Source: Auanema rhodensis (Eukaryota > Animalia > Nematoda). From it: a stretch of 64,000 nucleotides of DNA. Within the stretch, counting starts at the first letter, position 1. Every line of letters begins with the position of its first letter. This document shows positions 19,038-60,286 of the stretch, one piece after another. The notes under the pieces were generated by a model that saw only the letters and a list, made by a program, of their open reading frames with translations, did not search any database and was not told where the DNA came from. The stretch covers positions 11,222,001 through 11,286,000 of the forward strand of contig OZ059899.1 of assembly GCA_964057225.1 (NCBI GenBank). The letters run 5' to 3'. A program made the position numbers and the translations under genes.

Positions 19038-19550
19038 ATACACCAACCACACAAAAATCACCTACGCCCGCACTTTCTTCAACCACACCCGCAGTAAGCT
19101 CATCCCCACCTCTACGAAACTCACCTTCATCCATTTATCATTCTACATCTGGGCATTCTCTATCTCCGTCTCTTCCATCGCAAACTAATCAAGCAAATAC
19201 TTTTGTTGCAGAAAACAAGAGAATTAACCCAAGAATGGACCCAATGGACGAAGGCGCACCACTTACGCAAACCTCGGGAAGGGCACCTGTTCCAACACCT
19301 ACAATCATCCCTCAACCAGCAGCGATTCCGTCCGCCATGCGCGATATAAAAGCTCCACGCTACGATGGAAAAACACCATTCAACCGCTATCTACTATACC
19401 TAGATGAACACTTCAACGCTACAAGAACAACTATGCCCGAACGTCTTCAAAGCATACAATTATTGCTAGAAGATGATCGAGCTTGGATGGGACCATGTCA
19501 AGAAGCGACTCTCAGAAATGATCACACCGAAAAAATAGAGAGAACGAGCA

Positions 19551-20783: not shown

Positions 20784-20797
20784 CTGAACGAGGACAC

Positions 20798-22636: not shown

Positions 22637-22669
22637 TGGGCTATTCTTCAAATAAATCCTACTATAGGG

Positions 22670-25600
22670 ATGCGTACAATGCTACGACGACAGGATATAT
22701 CTGCAAGATTCATAAATGATAAACTAATTTATGTAATGCCATGCACACCAATTCAAATTACAAAAACATACCGCGATCACAAAGTCAACAGCACGTGTTT
22801 TCTGGAAACCCCAGTCGAAACGGAACATCACGGCCAACTGTTCATCCTACCAGGTACAAGAGACCTCACACCGATGGCACATCCCATACCATGCGGACTC
22901 ACAATCAAGGATCCCTGGAAAGAAAACGATCAATGGACTAATAATAACCAATCAATAAATGTAACATCACCAGCATACATCGACGAGTTAGGATCAATCA
23001 ACCTAGAACATATCAAGTTTAATGGAAGCAACATTTTCAACAACCTAACAGAATCAACGTTTCCTATGGCACTAGCAATATCATATGAATCCAGCTTAGC
23101 AACGCTACAGGCTACTTTACCAGGAAGAATAAAACCTGTAATCAAACAAAGATTAATTCCTAACATGAACCCTGTTACCCTAACAGCAGGAGCAGCCAGC
23201 AGCTTACTACTCAGCTACGAAAATACAAAAGAAGCTATAACTTGGAAAATGTTTGACTTTCTGTCACCAATATGGGAAAAGATTCAAACCTGGACACTAC
23301 GCGTACTTGCTATCATTGGATCAATCATCATAACAATTGGCATAATCACACTCGCCACCTGGATAATAAAAATATACGCATGTAGTTCAAGGATACCCAT
23401 CAACAATGTCAAATGGGAAGCAGAATACTTACAACCACTATCAACTGAGAACACAAGAACAGAAACATCTCATCCTTCTCCGTCCGCTCCATACGTCGAC
23501 AACCATCACAACAGCTGTCAACTCACATTGTATGATCCTTCAGCACAAATTCCTGAACACATTTATGAAGCTTATTTCCCTACAAGAATGAAGAAAGAAA
23601 ACATAAACTACATAGGAGGATCACAATTACCGTTTGTCCCGATTTCAATCCACAATCACATCTTTAAGGCACTATGGGACACGGGAGCATCAGCATCATA
23701 CATGCGAGAATCCACCTTCAAACAACTGCCCGCTGCAACGATGGTACTAAAACAAACAACAGCGATAGTCGCGAATAAATCTAAATTCTCATTTATGGGA
23801 TACACAAGGATCCTCATAACAATAGGAACAACAGAAACAGAACACAAATTTTATGTAGCAGAAGATAACTACTGTCCAGCACCAGTGTTACTTGGAATAG
23901 ACTTCATGGAAGCATTACATCAACAAGGAATTTACACCTCACTTCGACCGCTGGATAAAACAATTGTTATCGGCACAACACATGTTCCACTAGCACGAGA
24001 AACATCTCCGTGGGAACACCAGACCACAAAAGCATATGTGGTTAGCTTAGAAAACAAAACGCTGAGACCAGGAGAAACAAGAACGCTCACGCTAGAAGTA
24101 CACGATCCAGAAAGCTATGAACAGGCGTTTCTAGATTGTAAGAAACCAGGCAACAAACTCTCTTTCACGCCTACTATATTTACGCCAACTGGATACGGAG
24201 TACAAATTTACGCGACGAACATATGCAAACAGCCACTCGAAATTCAAATGAATCAAGAAATAGGGATAGCAGAAGCGATACCAAAGGACAACCAAGAAAA
24301 ATACGAAGGACAATACATACCTCCGGAAGCTCGATGGGAAGAACAACTGCCATATTTCCCAGACAATTTCATCAATGAACTTGACCTTTCAGAAGCCTGC
24401 TTCTCACAAAACGAACAACAGCAACTGAAAGAAATAATTTTACTACATAAACAAGCGTTTCTCAACGAAGATAGAAATATCGGACTCTTCCTAGGACCAA
24501 TTGAACACTCCATTCCAATCATGCCAGGAAAAACACCATCATTCAAAATTACTTATCGTATACCACTCTCCCAACAAGAAGAAGTGGAGAAACAAATAGA
24601 AGAAATGCTACAACAAAGAATCATTGAACCATCAAACTCAATGACAACTAGTCCAGTAATTTTGGTGAAGAAGAAAGACAAAACTTACAGATTTGTAACG
24701 GACTTTCGAGCTTTGAATGCAATCACTCAGAAACAAGTATATGTCATATCAAACATACAGGACATCCTAGATTTGGCCGCTGGAGCAAGGATCTTCAGCC
24801 ACTTTGATTTAGTATCTGGATTTTTCCAAATACCTCTTAAGAAGGAAGATCGTCATCGTCATCTTACAGCTTTCACAACAACAAGTGGAACTTACCAATA
24901 TTGTCGAATGCCGATGGGATTATGTGGATCACCCCATACTTTTCAAAACGCAGTACGATACCTGCAATCAATGGTTAAATGCAAGCTATTCGTATATCTA
25001 GATGATTTACTACTAATTTCTGAATCTACGACAGCACATTTAAAAGATATCGAAGAAGTTTTGGAAACAGTAACTCAAATAGGATTCAAAATAAAACTGA
25101 AGAAATGCGCATTCGCAAGAAAGGAAGTAAAATTTCTAGGATACATAGTTGGACAAGAAGGAATTAAACCCGACCCACATAAAATCAAGGCAATACAAGA
25201 TTATCCCCAACCAAAATCAACAACAGGAGTAAGAGCTTTCATGGGAGTAGTAAACTACTTCAGAAGGTTCATAAAAAACGCTGCAGGAATAGCAACACCA
25301 CTCTACAACCTCACTCGGAAAGACACTCCGTTCAAATGGACAGAAGAAGAAGAAATTGCTTTTAATACTTTGAAGAAAACATTGACTCAAGCACCTGTGT
25401 TACAAGCACCAATCCCGAAACGACCATATGTTATTGAAAGTGATGGAAGTATGATAGCAGTTGGCGCTGTACTACTTCAAGCGAAAGACGATCAAGTACC
25501 ATTACACCCAATAGCTTCTGCTAGTCGGAAACTCAACAAAGCTGAAAGGAATTATCCACCAATAGAAGTAGAAGCATTAGCTCTTACATTCGCCGTTAAA

Positions 25601-26269
25601 CAATTTCGCACCTACATACTAGGAACAGCAACCAAAATTATCACGGATCATAGACCACTTACTAGTTTAATGACTAGAAAAGATTTAATAGGTCGTTTAG
25701 CAAAATTTCAAATTGTTTTACAAGAATACGATATTGAAATTATCTACAGACCAGTAAAATTAAATAGTGTATGTGACGCATTATCACGATATTTTGAAGA
25801 TGAAATCAACGAAGCAAAACCACTAGCAAAGAAGAAAAACGAAAGAAAAACGACGGAAGATACTATTCATAAGATAAACACCTTCACGATAGCAGATATT
25901 CGATCAGTTCAGAATCAATCAAATTGGATAAAAGAAACTATGGATAAAATAAAGAACAATACAGCTGGACGACAACTGACGGACAGATATATTGTGTACA
26001 ACGATGTACTATACTCAAAACCAAAAAGAAGCCTACAAGTACCACGAACAATTTTACCACGAGAAGAGCACATAATTAATCCAATTATGAAGAAATTTCA
26101 TGAAGATCCGACACTCGGAGCTCATCTAGGAATAAACAAAACAATGGACTCAATATCAAGACGATTTACATGGACTGGAATGCAAGAAGACATTACAAAC
26201 TACATCAACAGATGTCTTGCTTGTGCAAAAAGAAAGAACAATCCTCACGAAGCAACGGTGAACCAATGA
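22670..26269 (+). CDS. pol: Fragment: Env C-terminus/TM fused in frame to protease, RT, RNase H and integrase N-terminus
   Basis: TM helix, LWDTGA, YLDD, ESDGS, H-H-C-C. Confidence 0.9.
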   Translation: MRTMLRRQDISARFINDKLIYVMPCTPIQITKTYRDHKVNSTCFLETPVETEHHGQLFILPGTRDLTPMAHPIPCGLTIKDPWKENDQWTNNNQSINVTSPAYIDELGSINLEHIKFNGSNIFNNLTESTFPMALAISYESSLATLQATLPGRIKPVIKQRLIPNMNPVTLTAGAASSLLLSYENTKEAITWKMFDFLSPIWEKIQTWTLRVLAIIGSIIITIGIITLATWIIKIYACSSRIPINNVKWEAEYLQPLSTENTRTETSHPSPSAPYVDNHHNSCQLTLYDPSAQIPEHIYEAYFPTRMKKENINYIGGSQLPFVPISIHNHIFKALWDTGASASYMRESTFKQLPAATMVLKQTTAIVANKSKFSFMGYTRILITIGTTETEHKFYVAEDNYCPAPVLLGIDFMEALHQQGIYTSLRPLDKTIVIGTTHVPLARETSPWEHQTTKAYVVSLENKTLRPGETRTLTLEVHDPESYEQAFLDCKKPGNKLSFTPTIFTPTGYGVQIYATNICKQPLEIQMNQEIGIAEAIPKDNQEKYEGQYIPPEARWEEQLPYFPDNFINELDLSEACFSQNEQQQLKEIILLHKQAFLNEDRNIGLFLGPIEHSIPIMPGKTPSFKITYRIPLSQQEEVEKQIEEMLQQRIIEPSNSMTTSPVILVKKKDKTYRFVTDFRALNAITQKQVYVISNIQDILDLAAGARIFSHFDLVSGFFQIPLKKEDRHRHLTAFTTTSGTYQYCRMPMGLCGSPHTFQNAVRYLQSMVKCKLFVYLDDLLLISESTTAHLKDIEEVLETVTQIGFKIKLKKCAFARKEVKFLGYIVGQEGIKPDPHKIKAIQDYPQPKSTTGVRAFMGVVNYFRRFIKNAAGIATPLYNLTRKDTPFKWTEEEEIAFNTLKKTLTQAPVLQAPIPKRPYVIESDGSMIAVGAVLLQAKDDQVPLHPIASASRKLNKAERNYPPIEVEALALTFAVKQFRTYILGTATKIITDHRPLTSLMTRKDLIGRLAKFQIVLQEYDIEIIYRPVKLNSVCDALSRYFEDEINEAKPLAKKKNERKTTEDTIHKINTFTIADIRSVQNQSNWIKETMDKIKNNTAGRQLTDRYIVYNDVLYSKPKRSLQVPRTILPREEHIINPIMKKFHEDPTLGAHLGINKTMDSISRRFTWTGMQEDITNYINRCLACAKRKNNPHEATVNQ

Positions 26270-27813
26270 AAAATTTTCCAACATCAACAAAACCATGGCA
26301 AAGAGTACACATGGATATACTCGGACCATTACCTAGGACAGAACAAGAAAACAGATATGTTCTTTCAATTCAAGATTCTTTTTCAAAATGGATTATCGCA
26401 ATTCCGCTAATCAGACAAACATCAGGAGAAATTATATCAGCTATCGAAAAATATCTCTTCTATGTTTTTGGACCACCTGTTACTATCATCACAGACAATG
26501 GATCTAATTTTATTTCAAACGATTTCACTACTATGTGCAGTAATTTTGGAACTACACACCACACTACTATGCCGTATTACAAAAACGCTAACGGACAAGT
26601 GGAAAGATTGCATCGGACGATCGAAGAAGCATTAACACCCTACGTTAATGACGAACAAAACGATTGGGATAAAATACTTCCGAAGATTATTTTTACACTC
26701 AACAGATTACCAAACGCCACCACTAAAACATCACCATACGAATGTTTGTTTGGACAAGTAGCATGTCTACCCATTGACAAAAACTTGGAAACACCGGAAG
26801 AACAAAATATCACGGATCAGCTCAAAAACTTAAGAGATATTCAAGAAAAAGTCAAGGAAAAGATTGCCACCAACGAAGAAAGAATGAAGCAGAAATACGA
26901 TCAAGCACATAGGACAAAAGAAAGAATATTAGATATAGGAGATCGAGTATTTGTACAAAGAGCGAACCCAAGCAACAAATTACAAATACGAAGAGATGGA
27001 CCTTACCGGATAGTGACAATTGAAGGAAACAACATCAGCATAACGGACCAAGATGGAAATATTATAAAAGCTCACAAAAATAACATACGTTATTTTCCAC
27101 CAGACGATAATCTTATATCAACAAGAAATAATGAAGAAGAGGAAGAAGAGGACCAAGACATAGCAAACGAAGAAGAAGAAGAAGAAGAAGAAACAAGTTG
27201 GAATAATCTGGATGAATGGGAACAAACCAATAATACGGAAAATAACAACAACTGTTACCCAACAGGCAGTCCAGATACTCTCGCGCAACTGTTACCTATC
27301 ACAGGGAATAACAGAGGAGTAAACGAAGAAGAAATTGAACATAATTCAGAAACACCTGACGACCTTGCTACAGCAAGAAGAATAACAAATTCTAATATAC
27401 AATTAGAAAATGAATCAACAACAATCGACAGAATTCAAGAGGACCTCAGACAGCTGACACCTTTCTCTCAAGAAGAAGGTCCTAATCAAAACGATATAGA
27501 AGATAATAACGCAAAAACATACGAAAAGCTACGAGATCAATTCAAGAATGAAAACAGAAAGGAGCTATTTGAGGACAGAAACAAAAACTCACCAGCAATC
27601 AAAAATTGGAACACTACACTTGCCGCAGCACTAGGAATAGGAAATGAAAACTCACGCCCGTATCATGTTAAACTAAAACCCAAAAGAAAAACACAAGACG
27701 AAGAAATCAGAAGTAATGGAGAATTGGAACTACATGGAAAAGCGGATCAAAGCAAAAAGCAGCAGAATAAATCTCCAACGCAAAACAAAGGAGAACAAGT
27801 ACGAAACTTTTAA
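26170..27813 (+). CDS. Fragment: integrase core, GPY/F motif and long acidic tail
   Basis: VHMDILGP, ITDNGSNF, NGQVER, DGPY. Confidence 0.9.
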   Translation: MDWNARRHYKLHQQMSCLCKKKEQSSRSNGEPMKNFPTSTKPWQRVHMDILGPLPRTEQENRYVLSIQDSFSKWIIAIPLIRQTSGEIISAIEKYLFYVFGPPVTIITDNGSNFISNDFTTMCSNFGTTHHTTMPYYKNANGQVERLHRTIEEALTPYVNDEQNDWDKILPKIIFTLNRLPNATTKTSPYECLFGQVACLPIDKNLETPEEQNITDQLKNLRDIQEKVKEKIATNEERMKQKYDQAHRTKERILDIGDRVFVQRANPSNKLQIRRDGPYRIVTIEGNNISITDQDGNIIKAHKNNIRYFPPDDNLISTRNNEEEEEEDQDIANEEEEEEEETSWNNLDEWEQTNNTENNNNCYPTGSPDTLAQLLPITGNNRGVNEEEIEHNSETPDDLATARRITNSNIQLENESTTIDRIQEDLRQLTPFSQEEGPNQNDIEDNNAKTYEKLRDQFKNENRKELFEDRNKNSPAIKNWNTTLAAALGIGNENSRPYHVKLKPKRKTQDEEIRSNGELELHGKADQSKKQQNKSPTQNKGEQVRNF

Positions 27814-28016
27814 TTAACTAACAAAAATCGTAGAATTGTAAAAATAATTTTTCTTTCTTTCGTATAGTACATTAAACATAAGACATAGATCAAAAACCAC
27901 CGAAATTCTAATTTCTATCCTTTAATTTTAACAAATTGTAACAATCACTGAAAAACAAACTATATAAAGAGAAAATTTTGATAGAGAAAAATTCAATAAC
28001 ACTTTTCTTACTCAAA

Positions 28017-28661
28017 ATGACCTCCTCTCTCGCCAACGTCACACTCTCTACATTCCCCGCAACTCCAACACCACTGGTCCCTCTAGCGACCACTATTGAA
28101 CAAGAATGGATAGAGGTACAAAACCTTCGTGAAGGTCTTCTATCTATCAACTGCATGAAGCCCAACTTAGGACCAATAATAAGCCTACAAACGAGCAAAT
28201 TGGAAAAGAAGACACAGCACATCCTATTTATGATGGAACTATTGGAGGAGAAAACCAAAAACTATAAGGAAAACGATCTGAAGGAGCTTCGCCAGCATCA
28301 AAAGAAATGGACAGAAGGATGTTCTCTCAGCCAGAAAGAGAACAGAATCCGACACATAATGCTGGGACAACCCGCCAGAACGCAGACCACAGCTGACATC
28401 TACAAAGCAATGCCGACGTGGACAACACAGATGACACAACAAGCTGTAAGAAATAGCGGAACCGAAGAAGAAGCATCGTGGATAGAGATAGGGCAAGACC
28501 TATCAGTAGTAATCGAAAAACTACTTACAAAAAGGACTACCAACACGTCCGCATCAAAAAGTAAGGCAAAAGCAGTTAGCCAAACCATCAGAACAATGGA
28601 GCTGCTTGGACTAGCATCAATGACGGAAATGATCCAGGAAATTGACCAACTGGAGAATTAA
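28017..28661 (+). CDS. Extra ORF 3' of pol in family A (214 aa from ATG; unknown function, predicted helical)
   Basis: Uninterrupted ORF with AAAA-ATG context, flanked by AT-rich noncoding DNA. Confidence 0.7.
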   Translation: MTSSLANVTLSTFPATPTPLVPLATTIEQEWIEVQNLREGLLSINCMKPNLGPIISLQTSKLEKKTQHILFMMELLEEKTKNYKENDLKELRQHQKKWTEGCSLSQKENRIRHIMLGQPARTQTTADIYKAMPTWTTQMTQQAVRNSGTEEEASWIEIGQDLSVVIEKLLTKRTTNTSASKSKAKAVSQTIRTMELLGLASMTEMIQEIDQLEN

Positions 28662-28856: not shown

Positions 28857-29273
28857 TGTTACATGCATATCTCAAAGGAAAGCAGCTGACCATGGCAGCT
28901 GCTATTATTAAACTAATGCAGATAGTTTTTAAGCAATTCTGAGAATATTCTAGATGCACTTTTTATAAGCTTTGTAACAATTTGTGTAAACTGAGTAGGA
29001 GTTGTATGGATATATAAACCTGAGTCCTCAAGACTCAGGCATCTCATTATCTCATTATCTTACTTTCTCTTTATCTTCTTTATATTCTCTTTCTTAACTC
29101 TAGCTTTAATCTTTGTATAATTATATTATAATGCGAACAATAAACCTTTATATATTTCATCTTTTGTTTCTTATTTCACCTTACATTACACACATATATT
29201 TAAAATCATACTCATCGTCTCATAGTCTGTTTGGATATCTCAACTTGGAACCATTGGGAATCCAAATGGAACG
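28857..29273 (+). repeat. 3' LTR, family A
   Basis: Direct repeat of 18603-19019. Confidence 0.95.
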
Positions 29274-48223: not shown

Positions 48224-48589
48224 CGTTCCATTCGGAGACTCTATATATGTAACTGCAGGGTTAGAGCCAGACCGACTAGAGGAATGAGGAATGGCACCGC
48301 CTTCCCTCATGCCCCTATTCGGGAGTTCGCCCCTTTGCAAGCCCATGGACGGTTTGCATCTAACTTAGTTAATCTTATATATTAGTCTTTGTCTTGTAAA
48401 TGTAGTTTACTTTATCCTTGTGTTATTGTATTGTAATGATATTGTATTGTGTATAATAAATCTATATATTTCCTTATCTTATGTAATCCTTATGCTCTGT
48501 TTCCATACCGCTACACTTATGGAATACTATACGCGTAGTTGAGCAGACTACAATGGTCTGTTCAATATACGTAGGAGCATAATGGAACG
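48224..48589 (+). repeat. 5' LTR, family B copy 2
   Basis: 9-bp terminal inverted repeat CGTTCCATT/AATGGAACG. Confidence 0.96.
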
Positions 48590-48610
48590 TGGAGGTTCCG
48601 CCTCGAACTC
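48590..48610 (+). promoter_or_regulatory. Primer binding site (tRNA-Gln)
   Basis: TGGAGGTTCCGCC (A>G versus copy 1) immediately after the LTR. Confidence 0.83.
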
Positions 48611-49571
48611 ATTTTTGTCGCAAAAACTCGCATAAAAAGTCCATATTTTGATATCTAAATTAAAACTTCCTCCACGGTTAGCAACATAATGAGGGCGCCA
48701 ACTTGTATAAGGTGCAGGTACAAGGGATCTCTCTTTTAGAGAGCTAGGACTATATAATTTTGAAATTTCACCCGCTGTCCCCTATCATAAAACCGTCTGA
48801 GTGTCCACCCTTATAATACCGTATCCTGCACCGCTTCTTTTGCATTTTTTTTTTTGAGGACGTTTGGATCGAAATAGGGGACAATTTCACCAAACGAAAT
48901 TTTGATTACATTATTATTTGGCAACGAGGAGTTAGAATGAAATTATGAAAGCGCACAAAGTTTAATATTTTATTGTGGTCAGGACTAGAAATTTGAAAGT
49001 TAAATTCAGGCGTAAAAGAGCATGCTAACTAAATATTTTTGCGGGAGCCGTTATTCGGTTTTTATTTTTTTTTTTTGATTGTGAGAATAGACCACACTAG
49101 TCCGAAAAATCCTGGCACAAATTTTATTGCCTGTCAGGTCATTTTGGCGAAAGCACATGGGCTACGGATGTTTTCTTCTCCGTAGAATGTGTCACCTTCC
49201 TCAGCTCATTTTTGTTGCTAACATCATAAGATATTCCCACACACCTACCGTAGTATTCATATTGTAATATTCTATAAATTAGTACAATGGTTTAAAGAAA
49301 AAATTGCGTTTTATAAACGAGCTTTGGTCTCAGTCCATTAGTAAAATGAGCAATCTTTTTAAATATTCTCGGAATCTCATTAGCATGCCAAAATCATTCC
49401 GAAAAAGAATCGCCCACGGCTTTTAATAATCAACGTGCACATGAGCCATTTTCCCAAGGCGCACGCACTCCTTCTTTATTAATAAGCTCGACCAAAGTTT
49501 GTGTTATGAAAAAAAAAAGAGAGAGAGAACAAATGAGTGAAATTAAGTATTTATTATATATGAAACAATTG

Positions 49572-50105
49572 TTAAAAGCCCCATTTAAAATGCAACTGTC
49601 TCACAAATTCTATAGGCTGTGAGATGGGCTCATCGCTAGGCTCTAAATACTGCGAATACACTGAATCCGCAGAGGTCCTTAGCAATAAGCCCATAGGAGA
49701 CTGTTCATAAAATAAATAAATTTTAAACAAAATTTTAGACATATAATCATAAAAATCATGAGACTTATGCTCATACCAATTCCAAGGGGATGCGACTAGA
49801 TTTGGGTTTTCATACCAATGCGCGCACAAGTCGGTGAGGCACCATCGCCGGATAGCTGCAACCTCATCCGCTATTTCCTGCATTAGGGAGAAGTTTACTA
49901 ATCCCCTTCCCAGATAATGCATCTTTAAATCCTCAATAAACTAAAAATTCTTATTAACATAACATGTTTCTTTGTTTTAACCAACCATCTTAATTATGTC
50001 TGGGTGCGGCCTATAAGCTAACACTTCGTCTTGATCATACAAGACGAGGTCAGCGTACAGCTTCCTCAAGACAAAAGTCATTCCCGATAGACCTTCATAA
50101 GCCAT
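49572..50105 (-). CDS. Spliced antisense accessory gene (exon 1 50105-49986, intron 49985-49941, exon 2 49940-49572; 162 aa)
   Basis: Same exon-intron structure as 2553-3086; 5 amino-acid differences; frame intact. Confidence 0.75.
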
Positions 50106-50516
50106 TCTTTGATTTATTTTTTTTTCAGCTCTACAAATATAAAGATTCTTATGCATAAAAAGGGGACATAAAACGACTGAAAATCTCTCTCATACTTTCA
50201 AGAATTCAATTAGAGTAAAGTATTAAGATTGAGGCTAGAAAGAGCGAAGACCAACAAAATTTATAATTGATGAACATCTGTGAAAAAGAATAAAGAAAAG
50301 AGAATACGGTAGATAGGCGGAGCCAGATCTCAGGCCAAGATTTTAAAACTCTTTCTCATCTAATAACGATTCTCGGCGAAAGACGCCACGTCTCAATCTT
50401 CAAACTTTTCTTACTTTTCCCTATAACCGACCTGAATTTCTTGTCACTCATTCAACGTCAACATCCCCCATATAACGAAACACTCGCGGTTTTTCCAAAC
50501 CAAGAGTGATTCCAAA

Positions 50517-53500
50517 GTGGCACGAAGATACTCTTCGGCCGTCCCTGCTCTATACCCTTCTGAGTCCAGTGACGACATCGCAGTCGCCAGTCGAACCAGA
50601 AGCCGCACTCGACTCCTCAGTGTTCAGATTGAAGAGCCTGAACAAGAGGTAAAACCCAAAGTCGAGAAAACCTTCATTCCTCGAGAAGGCACGTATTCAC
50701 CTCCGGACAACACCGAGGAGGACCCTGATTTCTATATTCAGGACTACAATATTCAAACTTCAGCTTCAACTCCAAAGGTACACTCTTTTAAAAGTAATAA
50801 AAAGATTCAAAAAATTCAAAAACCAAAACAAATAACCTCTAATACTTCACCAGCCACTCCCCACCTAAACTTATCAACTTTATCAGTTAATACTGATAAC
50901 GATCTTGCATCTTCTTTTGAACTAACTCTAACACCGCAGGCATTTTCCACTCCGATAGAAAACTCACAACTTAATAAAACCTCATCTCTCACTATTCGCA
51001 AATCACCCTTATCAGTTATCACTGATAAGCTTGATTCGAAAAAGCTTGATTCTAAAAAAATTAATAAAAGAAAAACTAATACACCGCGTAGGCGCTCAAC
51101 CTCTAATAATCCCGTAGAACCAAATCAGGAAATTACCGAAGTTTTGCCCTTATCACTAACTACTGATAAGTTCAAAAGTAAGAAATCTTTAACAGCTCGC
51201 TTAATAAAAGTTTTGAATTTGTCTCCAGGGGAGGTAACAACAGAACAAGTTGATAACTCTCTTCACGTATCCTCCAACCCAACCCTTAATAAGTCAGATA
51301 GCGCTATACCCAGCTCAAGCGTATCAATACATTCGACGCCTCAGGCAACGAGTCGAATTATCAAACTCCCAGGGAAGCGGTTCTCCTCAGCCGCCCCTAC
51401 CATTAGTTATCCAACATCTGGTAACTCGAAAAAGGGAGGTAAGAATTTAACGGCGAGAAGCTCAGGCAGTAAAGGGATTACGTCATCTCGCACATACCCT
51501 GAGGATATACCAACCATGACGGAGACACCACGTCTTCCGGGAGCTGGTAAATCTACCATTGCGCACGCATTAAGCTCACCTTATTGCCCCATATACGACG
51601 GAAGTCGTAACTTTAGAGATTTCGTGGCAAAGTTTAATACCTTTTCTAACGCCTTAGGCTTAGTGATGCCCGAAAGACTAACTATTTTACCATTACTATT
51701 GAAAAATGATAGAGCAGAGGAAGCTTATTTAGAGCTACCTGACAAGGTCAGAACAGCTGGACCTTGGGTTACCCTAATAGAAGAGTTAACATCCAAGCTG
51801 TGTCCCGAATACAATCAAGACCCTGCCCTTATCACACTTCAAAACAGCACTCAAGGCGATTTATCAATTGATGGTTTTGCACAAACGTTAAGAAACCTCA
51901 GCTTAAATGCTTTCTCTAATAGTGATACTCATAAAGATCACATTCTGAGGTCCACATTTTTGAGAGGCTTGAAAAATACGATACGCCCAGGGGTAATTCG
52001 AGCAAAACCCAAAACTTTTGCTGAGGCTGTTGATAGTGCTCGCTGGGAGGAATCAATTACAAACCAAGTAGCAGACCCTCAGGCGCTATTGGTTAACGCA
52101 ATTGAAAGAACTTTCCCCCCGCGCAGAAACAATGGTGGGAGAGGTATGGCAAGAGGTTATCAATCTTTTAATAATAAAAATTATCAAAATTATAATAATT
52201 ATAACAATTATCATCCAAACTTTCAAAACAATCAAAATTATCATAAATTTTCAAAAAATCAAAAAGGCTGGAATTTCCAAAACCCATTTGCTAGGAACCG
52301 CAATTTTGGTGACCGCGGTCGAAATTATCAGAATCAAAATCAAAATGGGTATCAAAGAAGCCATAATGCATCACAAAATCAAGAAATGAGCAATAATAGA
52401 CAGAGAAATAACAGTACCTTTAGGGGAAATAACAACAATAGAGGCAGAGGTAGAGGCTCAAGAGTCAATAATTTGACTCTGATATCTCCTTTGACTTTAG
52501 CCGTAGCTTTATCAGTAATCTTATCACTGGTTACAACAGCTGAAGCATACCAGCTATGTACTAAAGCTACTGGAGGAGCGCTTCTCCGTCCCCCATCTCT
52601 CCGAAAATGCTTATTACCACCAATAAAGCATATCTTACGAACAAAAGTTCATCTTTATACAAGGAATCAAACGGCACATGAATGGGATGCATGGAGATGC
52701 TCCAAAGAAATTCATAAAATGTGTATCAGAGACCTTTTGTTCCTTAGAGATACCAATACAACGATAGCGAGAATTGAAAAGATACCAGCTGCAGAATGCA
52801 GACTGGCAGTGAGAGATAGAAGATGGAATTGGAGTGAATTAAAGAAGATTGACAGCATAACATATGCAACTGACGAGCCTTCCTTCTCGCCAGGCCGATC
52901 TTTTAATAATGAACTATGTAAAGAGAAAGCTAGATTGGTTATCGAAAGAGGGGCTATGACACGGATGCCAGATGAAACTATAATCTCCAATTTAATACTA
53001 AATACTGAAGGATGCTTAGCGCATCATGGAGAATGTGCATCAGATACTTCAATCATCATATGGGAGAAACAGCCTTATGAATATCGATGCAACTATATCG
53101 ACATGAGTGAATATGATGCGATAATTGGAGACGGCATTATTCTGTTACCAACCACTCAATCAGCCCTTGTAATCGATCAAAAAGAGATACCGAAGCAAAT
53201 ATCTTCTTGTTTTAAACAGCCAATCTTCCACACCACGACTGGCAATTACATTCTTTTACCACAGTACCCAAATGACACCAATATCCCTGTTTTAATAGAG
53301 AGAGAATATAAGAAACTTCCGGCGAAAAGAGATAAAAGAGCAATTGCGGAATGCACGGTTGAATTAAACAAGGAGTGGATACAAAAACAGGAAGATTTTG
53401 AAACTTTAATATTAAATATTTGTCCTTATCCTTTCTTACGACCGGTGATGAGTAATCCTGGTATTTATCAGATAATACCGCTTATAAAGGCCAGACGAGC

Positions 53501-56500
53501 TGTCAACCCTTCATATTCAATTATTGATTGGGTTTCAGCACATCCTGAGAAGTTTTATTTCTTCTTAAGAAGTCCCGTATCTGATAAATCCATACAACGT
53601 TTCCTTCAAACATACGAAATACACGACCCTGAGGAAGCAATACTTTATTTTCTTGCGCAAAAGGAATTGGCAGCAACCACTCGCGGCGCTATACGGTATT
53701 TAACCTCACAACAATTATTAGAACAGATAGGTGACAGATTAACAGCACACGAATTTGACGAAAAACTACTAGAAAAGGATGGATCCTACTGTGAAAGAGC
53801 CGAAAGCATAGCGATGGAGCTAGCTTATACACCGGTAATATTTGAAAACAATCTGTCGGTACCATCGAGGCAAGAGGTTTTAAAATCCTTTGTGAACATG
53901 CCGCCTATCCGACCAACTTTAACAACTGACAATGCTGATGAGCGTATAGTACTTAGGAATACTCTTTACTTATACCATAACTTGATGACATTGCGAGTAA
54001 TAAGGCCAAATAAAACAGCAGCAGCCGTAGATGATGAAAAGTTCCGACAATTAACAATCAATGTGCCAGATACCAACAAACTATATCGAGATAAAGATTC
54101 TAACTACGGTATATCGATAGGCCCCCACCCTCGCATTCAAACTCCAAGCGCGGATACACGCCAGCTACTTATAAAAACATTTTTACCACTGTTAGAGGAT
54201 ATTGAAACACCGCCTTATCTGACTAGAAGACTGTCATTAACGACAACAACGGACAAACCCGCTTCACTAGTTCAGGAGACAACTATAAGCTATACGACTC
54301 GGATTCCGACGACAACCATAGTTGACACGACAACAGCCGTGATAACTACGACTCTCTCGCCAACAACATTAGCAACAGTCACTGACACGGCGTCACGAAC
54401 CTTAAGGAAACAAAGAACATCATCTCCACCCGTAGAAACCAGAGAAATTCAGGCTCAGGCAACGTATACAGCGTCAAAAGTGAACAACGAAATACAATTC
54501 AACCTCAACGTATCTCGCAGAATAGCTCAAGATCATCTACAATATACAACAACACTCATACAAGAAGAGCTACAGAAACGTTTTATGGAATCTTATGAAT
54601 CCATATGTGAGATTCAAAATAGATACCTCGAGCTATGGCGTTCTATTTTACACATAGAACCCACAATAGCAATGAGGACTATTTTAGGAAGAGAGGATAT
54701 TGCAGCCCGTTTCGTAGGCAGCGATATAGTTCATGTTCATATATGCTTACCTCTTCAACCTAAAGCTGTTTATCATAATCATAAGATCAATGATACATGC
54801 TATTTGGAAACACCAGTAATAACAGAAGATGAGAGATTATATTTTGCTGCTCCAGGATCAAGAGACTTATTAACACATGGAAAAGAGATAGATTGCGAAC
54901 ATGTACCAACAGATGTGTACTATCAAAATGGAGAATGGATAAATATAAATGGATCGGTTGAAGTAAAACCAATATCACTCTTTGATAAAGCGCAATACCA
55001 CCAATTAACACCTTTAAAGTTCACATGCGCTAACTTATACACCAATTTATCATTGAGAGTTTACTCAATGTCAACAGCTATTGCATATGGAGCAAGTTTA
55101 GCATCCATACAACAGAACCATGTTTTACATACTATTCACAACGATCCAAAGATTACGTCAGCCTTTAATCTTTTGAAAAAGGGCAGTGACTATATCTCTA
55201 AAGCAGCTGAGTTCACAACTTCCGCCTGGACTAGCGTAAAACAATTTCTAATAGGTTCAATTGAGAGAACACTCATCTTTATAGGATCAATAGTCACGAT
55301 TGCCGCAGTATTAATAATTCTTTTCGTTGTTGCTAAATTTTGGTTCTTCAGAGCCACTCCACTAACCGTAATGCATGTCCATGAAATAGATAATGAGCCC
55401 CCAGGCTATGAAGAAACATTGGAACTTGTAAGCCGCCCAGACCAACAGATGCCAGATAACATCATGAAGCAATACTATCCTGCGTTAGTAACATTTATTC
55501 CAATCGCAATACCATTTGTTGCTTCTATTGCATCAGCGGAAACAAAGTTACCATTAATATATATATCAGTTGAAGATAAACTGATTTTAGCTTTATGGGA
55601 TTCAGGCTCATCAGTGTCATATGTTAGGCTCTCCACCCTCAAATATCTGAACATGGCCGAAAATGTCAAGAAGAGACATTTAGTAGCGATGGCAGCCAAC
55701 AAGTCCACTTTCACATTTTATGGAAAGATAAATCTTGTAATTGAAATTGCCGGCTACGAGATCGAACACACATTTTTGGTCTCAAACGATCATGACTGTC
55801 CTGCTCCCGCTTTAATTGGACTAGATTTCATGAAAGCGCTTGACAGCGAAAACATCGACGTCAGCCTTAAACCATCCAAGAAGAGGTTGGAGATTGGAAA
55901 CAATGCCATCCCATTAATAGGAAACGAATCTATTAAGCATACGGAGATAACTGTGAATATCATTAATTTAAGAACAAAAACATTAAAGCCTGATGAAGAG
56001 GCACCTATCCCAATAAAGACAGATAAACCACTAGAATCTAACGAAGTGGTTGTCTTAGGGGATAGTGGAAGCGCATTAAAATCATTATATCCAACTGCGT
56101 TTCGTGATACCAGTGGAGTATATGTTATGTTCCGTAACGATACCGATGAAACAATAGCTATGGAAGCTAATTCAGTCATCGGGCAGGCAATAATTGGAGA
56201 AATTCCGGCTTGTGAACCCTTTAAGCATAAGCCAATTCTACCATATGTTCCGCCAGAAGCCGATTGGGAGAGTAAACTACCATATTTTCCAAGACACTTC
56301 ATAAAAGATCTTGATCTAGAGAATGCTGATCTCACGAAAGAAGAAAAACATGAGCTTACAAAAATAATTGAAAGCCATCGTGAGGCATTTCTTAACGAGG
56401 ACAGGAAAATAGGATTATTTAAAGGTCCTATAGAGCATACCATACCATTGAGAACAGATATGGATATGCCAAAGCCGAGAATAACACGTATTCCCTTAGG

Positions 56501-59222
56501 AAAACAGGAAGAAATTGAAAAGCAAGTCAAAGAAATGCTTGAGCAAGGCATAATAGAGCCTTCTACATCTCTATTTAATAGCCCTGTAGTACTAGTTAAG
56601 AAGAAAGATGACACGTATAGGTTTGTGACAGATTTTCGAGCTTTAAATAATGTCACACGCAAGCAAACTTATGTCATTCCAAGCATTTCTGACATAGTTG
56701 ATTTGGCAGCAGGCGCCCAATTTTTCTCAAACTTCGATTTAGTGTCAGGATTTTTTCAAATATCCTTGAGAAAATCAGATCGACCACTAACAGCATTTAC
56801 GACCACATCCGGCACATACCAGTACAAACGGATGCCGATGGGCCTTTGTGGAGCCCCTCATACCTTTCAAACAGCAGTAAGGTATTTGCAAAGTAAATGT
56901 TCTTGTAAACTATTTGTTTACTTGGACGATCTATTAGTTATATCTGATACAAGAGAACAACATCTCAAAGATATCGATGATTTACTGCAAGCAGTAGAAG
57001 AATTGGGAATGAAGATAAAGCTTAAGAAATGCGCTTTTGCTCAACCAGAAGTGAAATTTCTAGGACTTATTGTAGGACGTCAAGGTATAAAACCTGACCC
57101 TCAAAAAGTCGCCGCCATACAAGATTATCCGGCACCAAAGAATGCAACAGGTGTACGAGCATTCTTGGGAATGGTTGGATTCTTTCGCAAATTCATGAAA
57201 GATTTTGCACGTATCGCAAGCCCTTTATACGATCTGACAAAGGCAGATACTGAATTCAAATGGGAAAACAAACAAAAAGAAGCTTTAGACCTCCTTAAAA
57301 GAAGTTTAATACAGGCACCCGTTTTAAGCCCACCTAAATCGGACCGCTTGTTTATAGTTGAAAGCGACGGTAGTAACATCGCCATAGGTGCTGTATTATT
57401 ACAACCGGAAGATCCAAAACAACCTCTGAAAAATCTACACCCTATCGCATTTGCAAGCAGAAAACTAGTTAAAGCCGAACGTAACTACGCACCAATCGAG
57501 ATAGAAGCATTAGGCCTTGTATATGCATTAAATCAATTCCGTACATACATTCTTGGAACTCATACTATATGTATTACGGACCATCGACCCCTTACCAGCT
57601 TAATGACACGCAGAGACTTATTTGGTCGTCTTGCGAAGTTCCAGCTGGTCATCCAAGAATATGATATTGAAATAAAATATCGCGCAGGCCAATTAAATAA
57701 AGTATGCGATGCTCTATCTCGATATATAGGTAAAGAAGCTAACGATGCTAAGCCGGAAACAAAGAAGAAGAAAATGGAAGAAATTCACATTAACGCCATA
57801 AATACACCAACAATAAAGGAAATTCAACTGAACACCCCTTGGATTAAACGAACGATAGCGGAGATTGAATATAGAGCACAAAAGAACATGACAGCTAATG
57901 ACAGATATTGTGTCATAAACGACTTGCTATATACAAAACCGACAGACAAAAAGCCACAACCCGCTATCGTAATACCACAAGAACACCCCATAATTGAGGA
58001 AATAATCAAAGTTTTTCATGAGGATCCTACAATTGCAGCACATCAAGGAATTATTAAAACAAAAGAAGCAATTCTAAGAAGATTCTATTGGACAAATATG
58101 CAGAACGACATTACTATATTCATCAAGAACTGCATTAAATGTGCTCAAAGAAAAAAAGATCCACATTCCATGACGGTACAACCAATAGGTCATTTTGAGA
58201 TACCAAGCAAGCCATTTGAACGAGTCCACATGGACGTAATGGGACCATTTCCCCCTTCAAAAAGAAACTGTACCTACGTCATTACCATGCAAGACGCATT
58301 TACAAAATGGTCAACAACAATTGCTGTACCACAAATAACAACGGAAATCACAATTGACCGATTTCTAAGACATTTCGTTTACATTTTTGGACCACCCCAT
58401 CGCTTGATCACCGATAGAGGTTCGAACTTTGTATCTAAAAAGTTCGAAGAAATGTGTACTAAACTTGGAATCAAACATGAACCAACACTACCACACCAAA
58501 AGAACTCAAATGGACAAGTGGAAAGACTTCACAGAACCCTCGAAGAAGGATTAACCCACTACTTAAAAGAGGACCTTAGTGACTGGGATACTATATTACC
58601 AAAAATCACTTTTGCTATTAACAATATTCAGCACGCGACTACAGGGATTGCGCCATACATTGCATTATTCGGTAAAGAATGCAGAATGTCAATGGACGCT
58701 GAATTACCAGAAACGATCACCAAAATTCAAGAAATTTCTGAAGAATTACTCCAAAGAAGACCAGATATGGACAAGAGAGACGAAATAATAAAGAACCGCA
58801 TAGCTAAAAATCAAGAAAATGCGAAAAAGAAGAAAGATAGAACGCAAAGAGCACACCATAGAGACATTCAACCGGGCGACATGGTGATGACGACTATAAA
58901 ATCACACCAAATCGGCCAAAAGCTTCGGAAAAGCTATGATGGACCATACGAAGTCATCAACGTAGAAGGATCAAAAGTTCAAATCAGAAATTCATCAGGA
59001 AAACTACAAGATATCCACAAAGATAACTTGAAAATCTTCTCTCCTGCTTCACAAAACATCTCTTACAACACTCGCGCAAGGTTTCGAGAAAGTCAAGCAG
59101 AAGAAGATAGCGACATCGAAATAATAGAAGTGATCAACAGGAACAACAAGGATAGCATAGATACAGAGCCAGAAGATGAAAATGAAGACGAAATATGGCT
59201 TCCGAGGAATGAAGAAGAATAA
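50517..59222 (+). CDS. gag-env-pol: Gag-Env-Pol polyprotein (capsid; signal peptide; gB-like class III Env; TM; aspartic protease; RT; RNase H; integrase)
   Basis: PIYDG/FLRGL capsid motifs; signal peptide ending at 52547; KRDKR at 53325; gB-like motif at 54606-54747; TM ~55270-55350; DSG at 55599; YLDD at 56919; ESDGS; HHCC; DDE; GPY. The first ATG is at 51516, so the true start is uncertain. Confidence 0.95.
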   Translation: MARRYSSAVPALYPSESSDDIAVASRTRSRTRLLSVQIEEPEQEVKPKVEKTFIPREGTYSPPDNTEEDPDFYIQDYNIQTSASTPKVHSFKSNKKIQKIQKPKQITSNTSPATPHLNLSTLSVNTDNDLASSFELTLTPQAFSTPIENSQLNKTSSLTIRKSPLSVITDKLDSKKLDSKKINKRKTNTPRRRSTSNNPVEPNQEITEVLPLSLTTDKFKSKKSLTARLIKVLNLSPGEVTTEQVDNSLHVSSNPTLNKSDSAIPSSSVSIHSTPQATSRIIKLPGKRFSSAAPTISYPTSGNSKKGGKNLTARSSGSKGITSSRTYPEDIPTMTETPRLPGAGKSTIAHALSSPYCPIYDGSRNFRDFVAKFNTFSNALGLVMPERLTILPLLLKNDRAEEAYLELPDKVRTAGPWVTLIEELTSKLCPEYNQDPALITLQNSTQGDLSIDGFAQTLRNLSLNAFSNSDTHKDHILRSTFLRGLKNTIRPGVIRAKPKTFAEAVDSARWEESITNQVADPQALLVNAIERTFPPRRNNGGRGMARGYQSFNNKNYQNYNNYNNYHPNFQNNQNYHKFSKNQKGWNFQNPFARNRNFGDRGRNYQNQNQNGYQRSHNASQNQEMSNNRQRNNSTFRGNNNNRGRGRGSRVNNLTLISPLTLAVALSVILSLVTTAEAYQLCTKATGGALLRPPSLRKCLLPPIKHILRTKVHLYTRNQTAHEWDAWRCSKEIHKMCIRDLLFLRDTNTTIARIEKIPAAECRLAVRDRRWNWSELKKIDSITYATDEPSFSPGRSFNNELCKEKARLVIERGAMTRMPDETIISNLILNTEGCLAHHGECASDTSIIIWEKQPYEYRCNYIDMSEYDAIIGDGIILLPTTQSALVIDQKEIPKQISSCFKQPIFHTTTGNYILLPQYPNDTNIPVLIEREYKKLPAKRDKRAIAECTVELNKEWIQKQEDFETLILNICPYPFLRPVMSNPGIYQIIPLIKARRAVNPSYSIIDWVSAHPEKFYFFLRSPVSDKSIQRFLQTYEIHDPEEAILYFLAQKELAATTRGAIRYLTSQQLLEQIGDRLTAHEFDEKLLEKDGSYCERAESIAMELAYTPVIFENNLSVPSRQEVLKSFVNMPPIRPTLTTDNADERIVLRNTLYLYHNLMTLRVIRPNKTAAAVDDEKFRQLTINVPDTNKLYRDKDSNYGISIGPHPRIQTPSADTRQLLIKTFLPLLEDIETPPYLTRRLSLTTTTDKPASLVQETTISYTTRIPTTTIVDTTTAVITTTLSPTTLATVTDTASRTLRKQRTSSPPVETREIQAQATYTASKVNNEIQFNLNVSRRIAQDHLQYTTTLIQEELQKRFMESYESICEIQNRYLELWRSILHIEPTIAMRTILGREDIAARFVGSDIVHVHICLPLQPKAVYHNHKINDTCYLETPVITEDERLYFAAPGSRDLLTHGKEIDCEHVPTDVYYQNGEWININGSVEVKPISLFDKAQYHQLTPLKFTCANLYTNLSLRVYSMSTAIAYGASLASIQQNHVLHTIHNDPKITSAFNLLKKGSDYISKAAEFTTSAWTSVKQFLIGSIERTLIFIGSIVTIAAVLIILFVVAKFWFFRATPLTVMHVHEIDNEPPGYEETLELVSRPDQQMPDNIMKQYYPALVTFIPIAIPFVASIASAETKLPLIYISVEDKLILALWDSGSSVSYVRLSTLKYLNMAENVKKRHLVAMAANKSTFTFYGKINLVIEIAGYEIEHTFLVSNDHDCPAPALIGLDFMKALDSENIDVSLKPSKKRLEIGNNAIPLIGNESIKHTEITVNIINLRTKTLKPDEEAPIPIKTDKPLESNEVVVLGDSGSALKSLYPTAFRDTSGVYVMFRNDTDETIAMEANSVIGQAIIGEIPACEPFKHKPILPYVPPEADWESKLPYFPRHFIKDLDLENADLTKEEKHELTKIIESHREAFLNEDRKIGLFKGPIEHTIPLRTDMDMPKPRITRIPLGKQEEIEKQVKEMLEQGIIEPSTSLFNSPVVLVKKKDDTYRFVTDFRALNNVTRKQTYVIPSISDIVDLAAGAQFFSNFDLVSGFFQISLRKSDRPLTAFTTTSGTYQYKRMPMGLCGAPHTFQTAVRYLQSKCSCKLFVYLDDLLVISDTREQHLKDIDDLLQAVEELGMKIKLKKCAFAQPEVKFLGLIVGRQGIKPDPQKVAAIQDYPAPKNATGVRAFLGMVGFFRKFMKDFARIASPLYDLTKADTEFKWENKQKEALDLLKRSLIQAPVLSPPKSDRLFIVESDGSNIAIGAVLLQPEDPKQPLKNLHPIAFASRKLVKAERNYAPIEIEALGLVYALNQFRTYILGTHTICITDHRPLTSLMTRRDLFGRLAKFQLVIQEYDIEIKYRAGQLNKVCDALSRYIGKEANDAKPETKKKKMEEIHINAINTPTIKEIQLNTPWIKRTIAEIEYRAQKNMTANDRYCVINDLLYTKPTDKKPQPAIVIPQEHPIIEEIIKVFHEDPTIAAHQGIIKTKEAILRRFYWTNMQNDITIFIKNCIKCAQRKKDPHSMTVQPIGHFEIPSKPFERVHMDVMGPFPPSKRNCTYVITMQDAFTKWSTTIAVPQITTEITIDRFLRHFVYIFGPPHRLITDRGSNFVSKKFEEMCTKLGIKHEPTLPHQKNSNGQVERLHRTLEEGLTHYLKEDLSDWDTILPKITFAINNIQHATTGIAPYIALFGKECRMSMDAELPETITKIQEISEELLQRRPDMDKRDEIIKNRIAKNQENAKKKKDRTQRAHHRDIQPGDMVMTTIKSHQIGQKLRKSYDGPYEVINVEGSKVQIRNSSGKLQDIHKDNLKIFSPASQNISYNTRARFRESQAEEDSDIEIIEVINRNNKDSIDTEPEDENEDEIWLPRNEEE

Positions 59223-59263
59223 CAACAAGATAATGCTACGTTATTTAAATTATTGTAACAAAA

Positions 59264-59739
59264 TAACGATGAATTAGAAAAAAAAAATTAATGCTAAATA
59301 ACATTCAAAATAAAAATAGCATTTAATAGAGATTGAGAAAGGAAAAATAAGGCAAATTCTAAACGAGGAGATGTTATGACTAATGGTTCCAAGTTACCGT
59401 AATCCTATGCGGACTAGAGGACATTTTGACAACCATCCGAGCTCCATGTGCCTCTCCAAATAAGATGAGATAAACACTGGTAGGCGTATAAATCACAATT
59501 TCATCTTAAGTGGTAGTCTCCATTAGTAATCAAGGATTCACTCTGGGAGACATATGGAGATACATTATTAAATCATAATCTCGGTTCAATTTAGAAATGA
59601 GTACTTCTTGAGACCATTAGTCAAAATAATAACATATTCCCATTCATTACTAGCCCCTTATTCTACAATCTCTATTAGGAAATGCTTGAATATTAAGATA
59701 ATTAATTTATGAAATTAATAATATTCTAATTCATCGTTA
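59264..59739 (+). other. Long rod-like RNA secondary structure in the 3' UTR
   Basis: At least nine nested complementary segments, including 16-, 12- and 11-bp perfect pairs. Confidence 0.8.
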
Positions 59740-59909
59740 CTTTATATTATATCGAACCCTTCTTATAAATTATTGTAATTTTGTTTTTATACTAATTAAA
59801 ACTCTATCATACTATAGTTATTGTGAAGCTAAAATAATTGAACTCTAAAACTCAGTTACATATAAGCCCAAATTTTTGTTTTAAATATCGCGAGGTCGCG
59901 ACAATCTTT

Positions 59910-59920
59910 GAAAAAGGGCA
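59910..59920 (+). promoter_or_regulatory. Polypurine tract
   Basis: GAAAAAGGGCA directly before the 3' LTR. Confidence 0.75.
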
Positions 59921-60286
59921 CGTTCCATTCGGAGACTCTATATATGTAACTGCAGGGTTAGAGCCAGACCGACTAGAGGAATGAGGAATGGCACCGCCTT
60001 CCCTCATGCCCCTATTCGGGAGTTCGCCCCTTTGCAAGCCCATGGACGGTTTGCATCTAACTTAGTTAATCTTATATATTAGTCTTTGTCTTGTAAATGT
60101 AGTTTACTTTATCCTTGTGTTATTGTATTGTAATGATATTGTATTGTGTATAATAAATCTATATATTTCCTTATCTTATGTAATCCTTATGCTCTGTTTC
60201 CATACCGCTACACTTATGGAATACTATACGCGTAGTTGAGCAGACTACAATGGTCTGTTCAATATACGTAGGAGCATAATGGAACG
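59921..60286 (+). repeat. 3' LTR, family B copy 2
   Basis: Direct repeat of 48224-48589. Confidence 0.96.

What the first reader, a model, noticed from the sequence alone, without database searches (positions are those of the whole stretch)
59264..59739. ~475-nt rod-like fold in the family B 3' UTR (RRE/CTE-like candidate)
Seen, strictly nested pairs: 59264-79/59724-39 (16 bp perfect), 59285-92/59701-08, 59303-08/59686-91, 59318-24/59680-86, 59324-35/59666-77 (12 bp), 59346-52/59656-62, 59371-77/59629-35, 59377-87/59613-23 (11 bp), and 59442-50/59551-59. The bulged architecture looks like a selected RNA structure rather than a MITE. Known: complex retroviruses export unspliced RNA through Rev/RRE-type pairs, and C. 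elegans Cer1 uses its CERV protein for genomic RNA export. Inference: this rod and the accessory protein may form such a pair. It could instead be a localisation signal or a Dicer/ADAR substrate.
Basis: partly seen in the sequence, partly recalled or inferred. Interest (0 to 1): 0.75.

Follow-up and report, generated by a model that had tools for sequence, protein, structure and literature searches.

The report
RNA rod in nematode retrovirus tail
An endogenous retrovirus-like element, probably from a roundworm, carries between its last gene and its right-hand terminal repeat a 480-base stretch with complementary ends that is predicted to fold into a long bulged rod whose tip is partly shared with related elements; it likely acts as a handle for host proteins that export or protect the element's RNA, but that role is untested.

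Summary
The fold-back is real: all nine claimed helices pair, and the stretch folds far better than shuffles (z -7.8 plus strand, -8.3 minus). Five helices are well supported in the plus-strand ensemble, four are not. It lies in the 3' UTR of an intact gag-env(gB)-pol Ty3/Gypsy element whose nearest named proteins are from rhabditid nematodes. It is not a MITE and matches no Rfam family. Relatives whose surrounding UTR does not align share two pieces of the branched head (59421-59485, 59509-59560), suggesting selection there. Against a finely tuned stem: no compensatory change was seen, other copies break 3 of the 16 outermost pairs, A.C mismatches outnumber G.U (9:2), and 2 of 28 unrelated Gypsy tails fold about as well on a blind grid. 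The Rev/CERV pairing is unsupported: the element's only accessory frame is antisense, acidic, without arginine-rich motif or homologue. Best reading: a constitutive, CTE/MTE-like post-transcriptional element (0.4); covariation and function remain untested.

The parts
59264..59739 (+). Predicted rod: long imperfect basal stem carrying a branched head
59258..59400 (+). 5' outer arm (purine-rich, 50% A); about 100 Watson-Crick columns with the 3' arm; no relative matched it at 80% or more apart from family B itself
59600..59745 (+). 3' outer arm; its end (59738, 59739, 59743) differs among family-B copies in ways that break pairs
59421..59600 (+). Branched head: helices 59422-27/59594-99, 59437-41/59580-84, 59442-50/59551-59 and apical hairpin; z about -3 on its own
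59461..59508 (+). Apical hairpin: 11-bp helix (p 0.97), 8x8 internal loop, 3-bp cap; three of the family-B variable sites fall in its unpaired loop
59509..59560 (+). 52-nt piece shared at 47 of 52 letters with a diverged sister family, at nearly the same distance from the purine tract (302 vs 281 letters to the next shared block)
   Evidence: (piece and joint in run X9; loose ends at both borders in X8, X6, X9)
59421..59485 (+). 65-nt piece shared at 63 of 65 letters with a variant contig that has other letters before 59421 (one run only)
   Evidence: run X3
59223..59920 (+). 3' UTR of element B, ending in the purine tract 59910-59920; no plus-strand open frame over 46 codons
59921..60286 (+). 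3' LTR, 366 bp, identical to the 5' LTR
48224..48589 (+). 5' LTR, followed directly by a TGG-initiated primer-binding site; 4-bp target duplication in the tRNA-Ile array unit
50436..59222 (+). Single open frame of 2928 codons: gag-like, gB/Monjiviricetes-type fusion glycoprotein, protease, RT, RNase H, integrase; first Met at codon 361
49986..50105 (-). Predicted exon 1 (40 codons) of an antisense accessory frame in the 5' leader; followed by a predicted 45-nt GT..TTTTTAG intron
   Evidence: splicing not tested
49572..49940 (-). Predicted exon 2 (122 codons) of the antisense accessory frame; acidic, no homologue

Best explanation
The stretch is an imperfect inverted repeat in the 3' UTR of an intact gag-env-pol Ty3/Gypsy element, predicted to fold in the genomic RNA into a long stem with a branched head, and it likely works as a constitutive post-transcriptional element that binds host proteins to export and stabilise the unspliced RNA, as the CTE, MTE and MER11 elements of mammalian retroelements do. 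Shown: the pairing potential, the position, the intact host element, sequence retention of head pieces in relatives. Inferred: that the fold forms in vivo on the plus strand; that the head is the binding site and the stem a family-specific scaffold that isolates it; that the partner is a host factor (NXF-1 or CRM1 route) rather than an element-encoded protein; that the function is export or stability.
For: z -7.8, 0 of 100 shuffles; core helices keep p 0.82-0.98 inside 1.9 kb of flanking RNA. Element is intact with identical LTRs, so a 480-nt, 70%-complementary fold has been carried through many replication cycles. Head pieces are kept in relatives whose flanks do not align at 80%: 47 of 52 letters (seen in 3 of the 6 runs laid, 2 studies) and 63 of 65 letters (1 of 6 runs); chance of 47/52 is 1e-6, 4e-4 or 0.04 for background identity 0.6, 0.7 or 0.8. 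None of the 6 inner variable sites hits one of the 154 of 444 confidently paired inner positions (P 0.08). Position directly upstream of the purine tract matches the MPMV CTE and the MER11 element; MTE is 412 nt (PMC11379458, passages). Long basal stem plus branched junction matches the RRE outline (PMC5767303, passages). The 360 Met-less codons at the start of the polyprotein frame hint that the RNA is spliced or otherwise processed, which would make export of the unspliced form a need (inference).
Against: No compensatory pair was observed; the sister family's 5 differing letters were not listed by the tool and its other arm was out of view. All 3 variable sites at confidently paired positions (59277, 59738, 59739) and one weakly paired site (59743) break pairs, in the outermost helix. 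In the outer arms A.C mismatches outnumber G.U 9:2 (7-12: 2-4 by gap setting; P 0.03-0.11), and the minus strand folds as well or better, so plus-strand tuning is not shown. Element A (64% identical RT-RNase H protein) has an ORF, not a rod, at this place. One variant contig has other letters in place of the 5' outer arm. On a blind 160-nt grid B scores -29 kcal/mol (z -5.5); 2 of 28 unrelated Gypsy tails reach -29 to -30 (z -3.5 to -5.3) on refinement. Patches of identity could come from recombination between sister families rather than selection. The CTE loop motif (recalled) is absent. No splicing of the element was shown.
Confidence: 0.4

Rival explanations
1. The outer stem is an old fold-back duplication that drifts, or is patched by template switching during reverse transcription, with little or no function; at most the small head matters.
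For: Pair-breaking differences among copies cluster at the stem's base (59738, 59739, 59743, 59277); A.C excess fits G-to-A drift in an A-rich element (36% A, 18% G); no strand preference; a variant lacks the 5' arm; 59421-59745 without the 5' arm folds no better than shuffles (z -0.3).
Against: Blocks of 11-16 perfect pairs alternate with unpaired purine loops rather than evenly scattered mismatches; inner helices carry none of the 6 inner variable sites; active retroelements tend to lose useless inverted repeats (general knowledge, not tested).
Confidence: 0.25
2. The fold is a selected cis-element with another job in the genomic RNA or its cDNA: packaging, dimerisation, localisation in the germline, protection from nonsense-mediated decay, or an aid to strand transfer near the purine tract.
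For: Same conservation and position data; nothing in the data separates export from these jobs; the minus strand, which exists as single-stranded cDNA, pairs well.
Against: Packaging and dimer signals usually lie near the 5' end (recalled); no self-complementary loop stands out in the predicted head.
Confidence: 0.13
3. Rod and an element-encoded accessory protein form a Rev/RRE-like pair.
For: RRE-like outline; Cer1 shows that a nematode Ty3/Gypsy element can encode an export factor (PMC10309623, sections 9 and 15); B has a predicted two-exon antisense frame, open in both window copies for exon 2 (5 amino-acid and 6 silent codon changes), and a basic N-terminal extension with RS/KR clusters.
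Against: The antisense protein has 7 Arg and 7 Lys in 162 residues, at most 2 Arg in any 15, pI 5.2 for exon 2; no homologue or fold match. CERV is a sense, spliced 517-aa protein whose C-terminal half lies after pol; B has only about 58 residues after the integrase match and no C-x2-4-C in residues 1-690. Element A has a 3' ORF but no rod.
Confidence: 0.1
4. The fold matters on an antisense transcript or as a Dicer/ADAR substrate that feeds small-RNA control.
For: Minus strand has more wobble pairs and a 22-bp stacked helix against 16 on plus; the element has an antisense frame; ADAR and ERI-6/7 act on nematode LTR elements and hairpins (PMC7084138, passages).
Against: Two guessed-RNA contig sets show the same letters as DNA run X9 over the rod, with no extra A-to-G or T-to-C (contigs drop minority edits and the RNA label is a guess); plus-strand helices are short for Dicer.
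Confidence: 0.09
5. The stretch is a MITE or other TIR element inserted in the UTR.
For: 16-bp perfect terminal inverted repeat that begins and ends with TA; a MULE fragment lies elsewhere in the window.
Against: No loose ends at 59264 or 59739 in the full table for 4 runs, and contigs run through both borders; flanks are not a direct repeat; the terminal 14-mer occurs only at the two rod ends in 64 kb with up to 2 mismatches; pairing continues inward for 140 nt and the head is shared with sister retroelements.
Confidence: 0.03

Closest known systems
Constitutive transport elements: MPMV CTE (162 nt), musD MTE (412 nt), SERV-K MER11 element (PMC11379458 and PMC5767303, passages read)
   Same: Non-coding, structured, in the 3' part of an LTR element upstream of the purine tract (stated for CTE and MER11; recalled for MTE); similar size to MTE; no viral partner needed.
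   Different: No sequence match (Rfam); the recalled CTE loop motif is absent; invertebrate Ty3/Gypsy host element; activity untested.
HIV-1 Rev response element (PMC5767303, passages read)
   Same: Long basal stem joining the two ends, stem-loops around a junction at the tip.
   Different: RRE lies inside env coding sequence and needs Rev; here the fold is non-coding, AU-rich, and no Rev-like protein was found.
C. elegans Cer1 / CERV (PMC10309623; abstract, sections 6, 9, 15 and passages read)
   Same: Nematode Ty3/Gypsy element with one long polyprotein frame; shows that gRNA export is regulated in this group.
   Different: [quoted passage not shown] No cis-element is named in that paper's main text.
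Non-canonical GAG-ENV-POL nematode errantiviruses with HSV/gB-type ENV (PMC13524379, passages read; Sacco et al. 2022 known only as cited there)
   Same: Element B has this gene order and env type.
   Different: The paper's main text has no occurrence of 'UTR', 'untranslated', 'secondary structure' or 'accessory'; its supplements were not opened.

Membership tests
GAG-ENV-POL nematode errantivirus (host element) | Ty3/Gypsy pol order PR-RT-RH-IN between LTRs, with PBS and purine tract | tested here: met
GAG-ENV-POL nematode errantivirus (host element) | gB-type fusion glycoprotein between gag and pol | tested here: met
   PF24664 E 8e-15, PF00606 E 9e-9 (below its curated cut-off), residues 1365-1508
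GAG-ENV-POL nematode errantivirus (host element) | Nematode host | tested here: inconclusive
   Nearest named proteins are from Heterorhabditis, Caenorhabditis and Auanema (43-61% identity); the host itself is unnamed
Rev/RRE-type pair | Structured RNA with long basal stem and branched junction | tested here: met
   Predicted only
Rev/RRE-type pair | Element-encoded RNA-binding adaptor with arginine-rich motif and export signal | tested here: not met
   Antisense frame has at most 2 Arg per 15 residues and is acidic; no homologue; spliced products from the basic N-terminal extension not excluded
Rev/RRE-type pair | Match to an Rfam response-element family | tested here: not met
   Only a sub-threshold MIR1886 hit (22 bits, cut-off 62)
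Rev/RRE-type pair | Export depends on the protein | not testable with these tools
   needs a reporter assay
Cer1/CERV system | Large ORF after pol joined by splicing to gag-frame exons; Cys loop | tested here: not met
   About 58 residues after the integrase match, non-coding UTR, no C-x2-4-C in residues 1-690
CTE/MTE-like constitutive element | Non-coding structured RNA upstream of the purine tract | tested here: met
CTE/MTE-like constitutive element | NXF1-binding loop motif of the MPMV CTE (motif recalled) | tested here: not met
   absent on both strands
CTE/MTE-like constitutive element | Structure conserved through compensatory changes | tested here: inconclusive
   Head pieces kept in relatives, but partner arms not visible; no compensatory pair among family-B copies
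CTE/MTE-like constitutive element | Promotes export of intron-retaining RNA without viral protein | not testable with these tools
   needs a reporter assay
MITE / TIR element | Target-site duplication and copies at unrelated sites | tested here: not met
   a family sharing only the 16-bp ends would escape the read-laying test
Retrozyme / ribozyme | Hammerhead or other ribozyme core | tested here: not met
   No Rfam hit; recalled hammerhead core motif absent

The most novel reading that the evidence does not exclude
The rod is the first cis-acting genomic-RNA export element of an invertebrate Ty3/Gypsy virus and is read by a protein of the element itself (the antisense frame or a spliced product of the basic N-terminal extension): a Rev/RRE-like switch evolved independently in nematode errantiviruses, with a conserved head carried on exchangeable stems.
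Probability: 0.1. Interest if true: 0.8.

Novelty: new variant of a known kind. Interest (0 to 1): 0.45.

Why it matters
How invertebrate LTR elements get unspliced genomic RNA out of the nucleus is largely open: for Cer1 the protein is known but no RNA element is named. A discrete 480-nt fold with a head shared between sister families, in an intact and recently inserted nematode element, is a concrete candidate that can be cut out and tested in a reporter. It would also show how a retroelement keeps long paired RNA in a host with strong RNAi, by breaking it into helices of 16 bp or less. If the stem proves to be a drifting duplication, the finding shrinks to a conserved motif of about 150 nt.

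Tried and rejected
No whole genome is held for the window, so copies elsewhere could be seen only through sequencing-run contigs. Exact-pattern scans found nothing: purine tract/LTR start in metagenome contigs, head piece in viral contigs. Protein-guided scans of viral contigs found no relative. The metagenome scan returned 80 generic Gypsy loci (best segments 28-44%), none with this env and none matching the UTR beyond chance; 28 of the 80 with enough sequence after integrase served as controls, the other 52 were dropped. The genome-contig collection was not scanned. The representative-protein search added no closer relative. No RNA holder is on record; runs X12 and X13 are only guessed to be RNA, and their contigs cover the rod (X13 in one piece), which is not evidence of expression. 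Of 15 runs listed, 6 were laid (X3, X6, X8, X9, X12, X13); one search left 25 difference rows, 20 loose-end rows and 32 pieces unshown. The single-sequence model of the antisense exon was poor (pLDDT 54.5) and matched nothing; the ESM Atlas gave only sub-0.8 hits and did not answer for element A's 3' ORF. The antisense exon and A's 3' ORF are not similar. Earlier scan findings: nothing by sequence, place or relatives. Literature searches listed no paper on a structured 3' UTR in nematode gag-env-pol elements; the term '3 UTR' matched nothing as typed, so searches were weak, and Sacco et al. 2022 is not held. No covariance model was built: no alignable relatives were available as loci.

Full report
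Setting. The window is an array of about 667-bp units holding 50 tRNA-Ile(AAT) genes, interrupted by two LTR elements and part of a third copy. Element B spans 48224-60286 with identical 366-bp LTRs, a primer-binding site and a purine tract, and one open frame of 2928 codons carrying a gB/Monjiviricetes-type fusion protein, protease, RT, RNase H and integrase. The nearest named proteins come from Heterorhabditis, Caenorhabditis and Auanema (43-61% identity), so the host is probably a rhabditid nematode (inference). This gene order is that of the GAG-ENV-POL, HSV/gB-type errantiviruses described for Nematoda (PMC13524379, passages). It is not Cer1, which carries the CERV-coding ORF after pol (PMC10309623).

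Observation. All nine helices listed pair as stated. The stretch folds at -122.3 kcal/mol against -81.2 +/- 5.3 for shuffles (z -7.83) and at z -8.26 on the other strand. It was the only one of 24 windows in A and B with z below -4; a second grid also flagged the 3' LTR window (z -5.6, 6 shuffles). On the plus strand five helices have probability 0.84-0.98 and four have 0.03-0.59; the strong ones persist when 1.9 kb of context is folded. The shape is a basal stem (59258-59400 with 59600-59745, about 100 Watson-Crick columns) and a branched head (about 59420-59600).

How unusual. As control I folded 119 windows after the pol stop in 28 unrelated Gypsy loci (of 80 fetched). On the same blind grid B scores -29.3 kcal/mol below shuffles (z -5.5); 26 of 28 controls stay above -17, while two reach -29 to -30 on refinement (z -3.5 to -5.3). 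Optimally placed, B scores -41. Strong folding in a Gypsy tail is thus uncommon but not unique.

Not a MITE. The flanks are not a direct repeat, the terminal 14-mer occurs only at the two ends in the window, and in four runs no loose end falls at either border while contigs pass through both.

Conservation. Six runs were laid. Within family B, ten sites vary in 59258-59745. Three sit at confidently paired positions and one at a weakly paired one, all in the outermost helix, and all break the pair; the direction of change is unknown, and three changes within six bases that each complete the repeat in the window's copy could equally be template-switch patching (mechanism recalled). The six inner sites avoid the 154 of 444 confidently paired positions (P 0.08). 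No compensatory pair was seen. Beyond family B, a contig of a sister family matches 59509-59560 at 47 of 52 letters and, 302 letters later (281 in B), the block before the purine tract (borders seen in X8, X6 and X9, two studies); by eye the letters just before the match resemble the 3' half of the apical hairpin, but its partner arm is out of view. In run X3 a 93-letter contig matches 59421-59485 at 63 of 65 letters and has other letters before it. So the head, not the stem, is what relatives share. This suggests selection on the head, with recombination between families as the alternative.

Strand. In the outer arms A.C columns outnumber G.U 9 to 2 (P 0.03 against 1:1, 0.11 against composition), sub-domains show no consistent strand preference, and the minus strand has the longer stacked helix (22 vs 16). 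This gives no support to plus-strand tuning of the stem; G-to-A drift in an A-rich element, selection for short helices, or an antisense role would each fit.

The accessory protein. B's leader holds a predicted antisense gene of 40 + 122 codons split by a 45-nt intron. Exon 2 is open in both window copies. The product is acidic, has no arginine-rich motif and no homologue or fold match. CERV, by contrast, is a sense spliced protein with a cysteine loop (PMC10309623, section 9), features absent here. Element A has a 239-codon frame after pol but no rod. A Rev-like pair is therefore unsupported, though the basic, Met-less N-terminal extension of the polyprotein frame remains an untested candidate.

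Mechanism. The place upstream of the purine tract is where the MPMV CTE and the MER11 element act, and MTE is of similar size (PMC11379458, passages); the outline recalls the RRE (PMC5767303, passages). I therefore favour a constitutive post-transcriptional element, head as binding site and stem as scaffold (0.4), over a drifting fold-back (0.25), another cis-role (0.13), a Rev-like pair (0.1), an antisense or small-RNA role (0.09; no majority editing in guessed-RNA contigs; background in PMC7084138, passages) and a MITE (0.03). Every step beyond pairing potential, position and sequence retention is inferred.

Novelty. No Rfam family matches, and the listed searches found no description of such a fold in nematode elements, with the limits given under Tried and rejected; no supplements were opened, and those of PMC13524379 may list this element. 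Two unchecked notes of this scan report other structured Gypsy 3' UTRs, which makes the kind less rare but is no evidence here. Verdict: real, ordinary in kind, new in sequence and host group, function untested; interest 0.45.

Noticed in passing
window 48224-48232, 48581-48589, 59921-59929, 60278-60286; 19011-19019, 29265-29273: B's LTRs begin and end with CG (9-bp inverted ends) instead of the usual TG...CA; A's LTRs begin with TG but end in the same 9 letters as B's, followed by the same first 10 PBS letters.
   Followed up: partly
window 4434, 18603/29273, 48224/60286: All three insertions sit in the tRNA-Ile array, 42-84 bp from a tRNA gene, with 4-bp target duplications where both ends are seen: possible tRNA-gene targeting by a nematode errantivirus.
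   Followed up: partly
window 50436-51515 (+): The polyprotein frame is open for 360 codons before its first Met; the stretch is basic (pI 9.9) with RS/KR clusters, so it may be reached by splicing or a non-AUG start.
   Followed up: partly
window 49572-50105 (-): Predicted two-exon antisense gene in B's 5' leader; exon 2 holds 11 of the 37 differences between the two window copies in 366 of 4433 bases (5 amino-acid changes), a local peak of divergence.
   Followed up: partly
window 27942-28661 (+): [quoted passage not shown]
   Followed up: no
window 27935-27944 and 59252-59261: The same 10-letter UGUA-containing word lies shortly after the pol stop in A and in B and nowhere else in the window; picked after the fact, so weak.
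   Followed up: partly
window 18950-27813: Element A's gag-env-pol frame is split into several open frames, with 99.3% identical LTRs; real lesions or assembly errors not decided.
   Followed up: no
window 55790-56668 (-): A 292-codon antisense open frame overlaps B's protease-RT region; no Pfam match.
   Followed up: no
window 6464-8209 (-): Remnant of a MULE transposase in the tRNA array (PF10551, below cut-off).
   Followed up: no
window 58902-59041, 59842-59968, 60019-60258: Run contigs show further related families that share the integrase end, the purine tract and the LTR start with B at about 80-90%.
   Followed up: partly
L008:6619-7098 and L032:4851-5970: Two unrelated Gypsy loci also fold well after pol (z -5.3; -3.5 and -4.1).
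   Followed up: no
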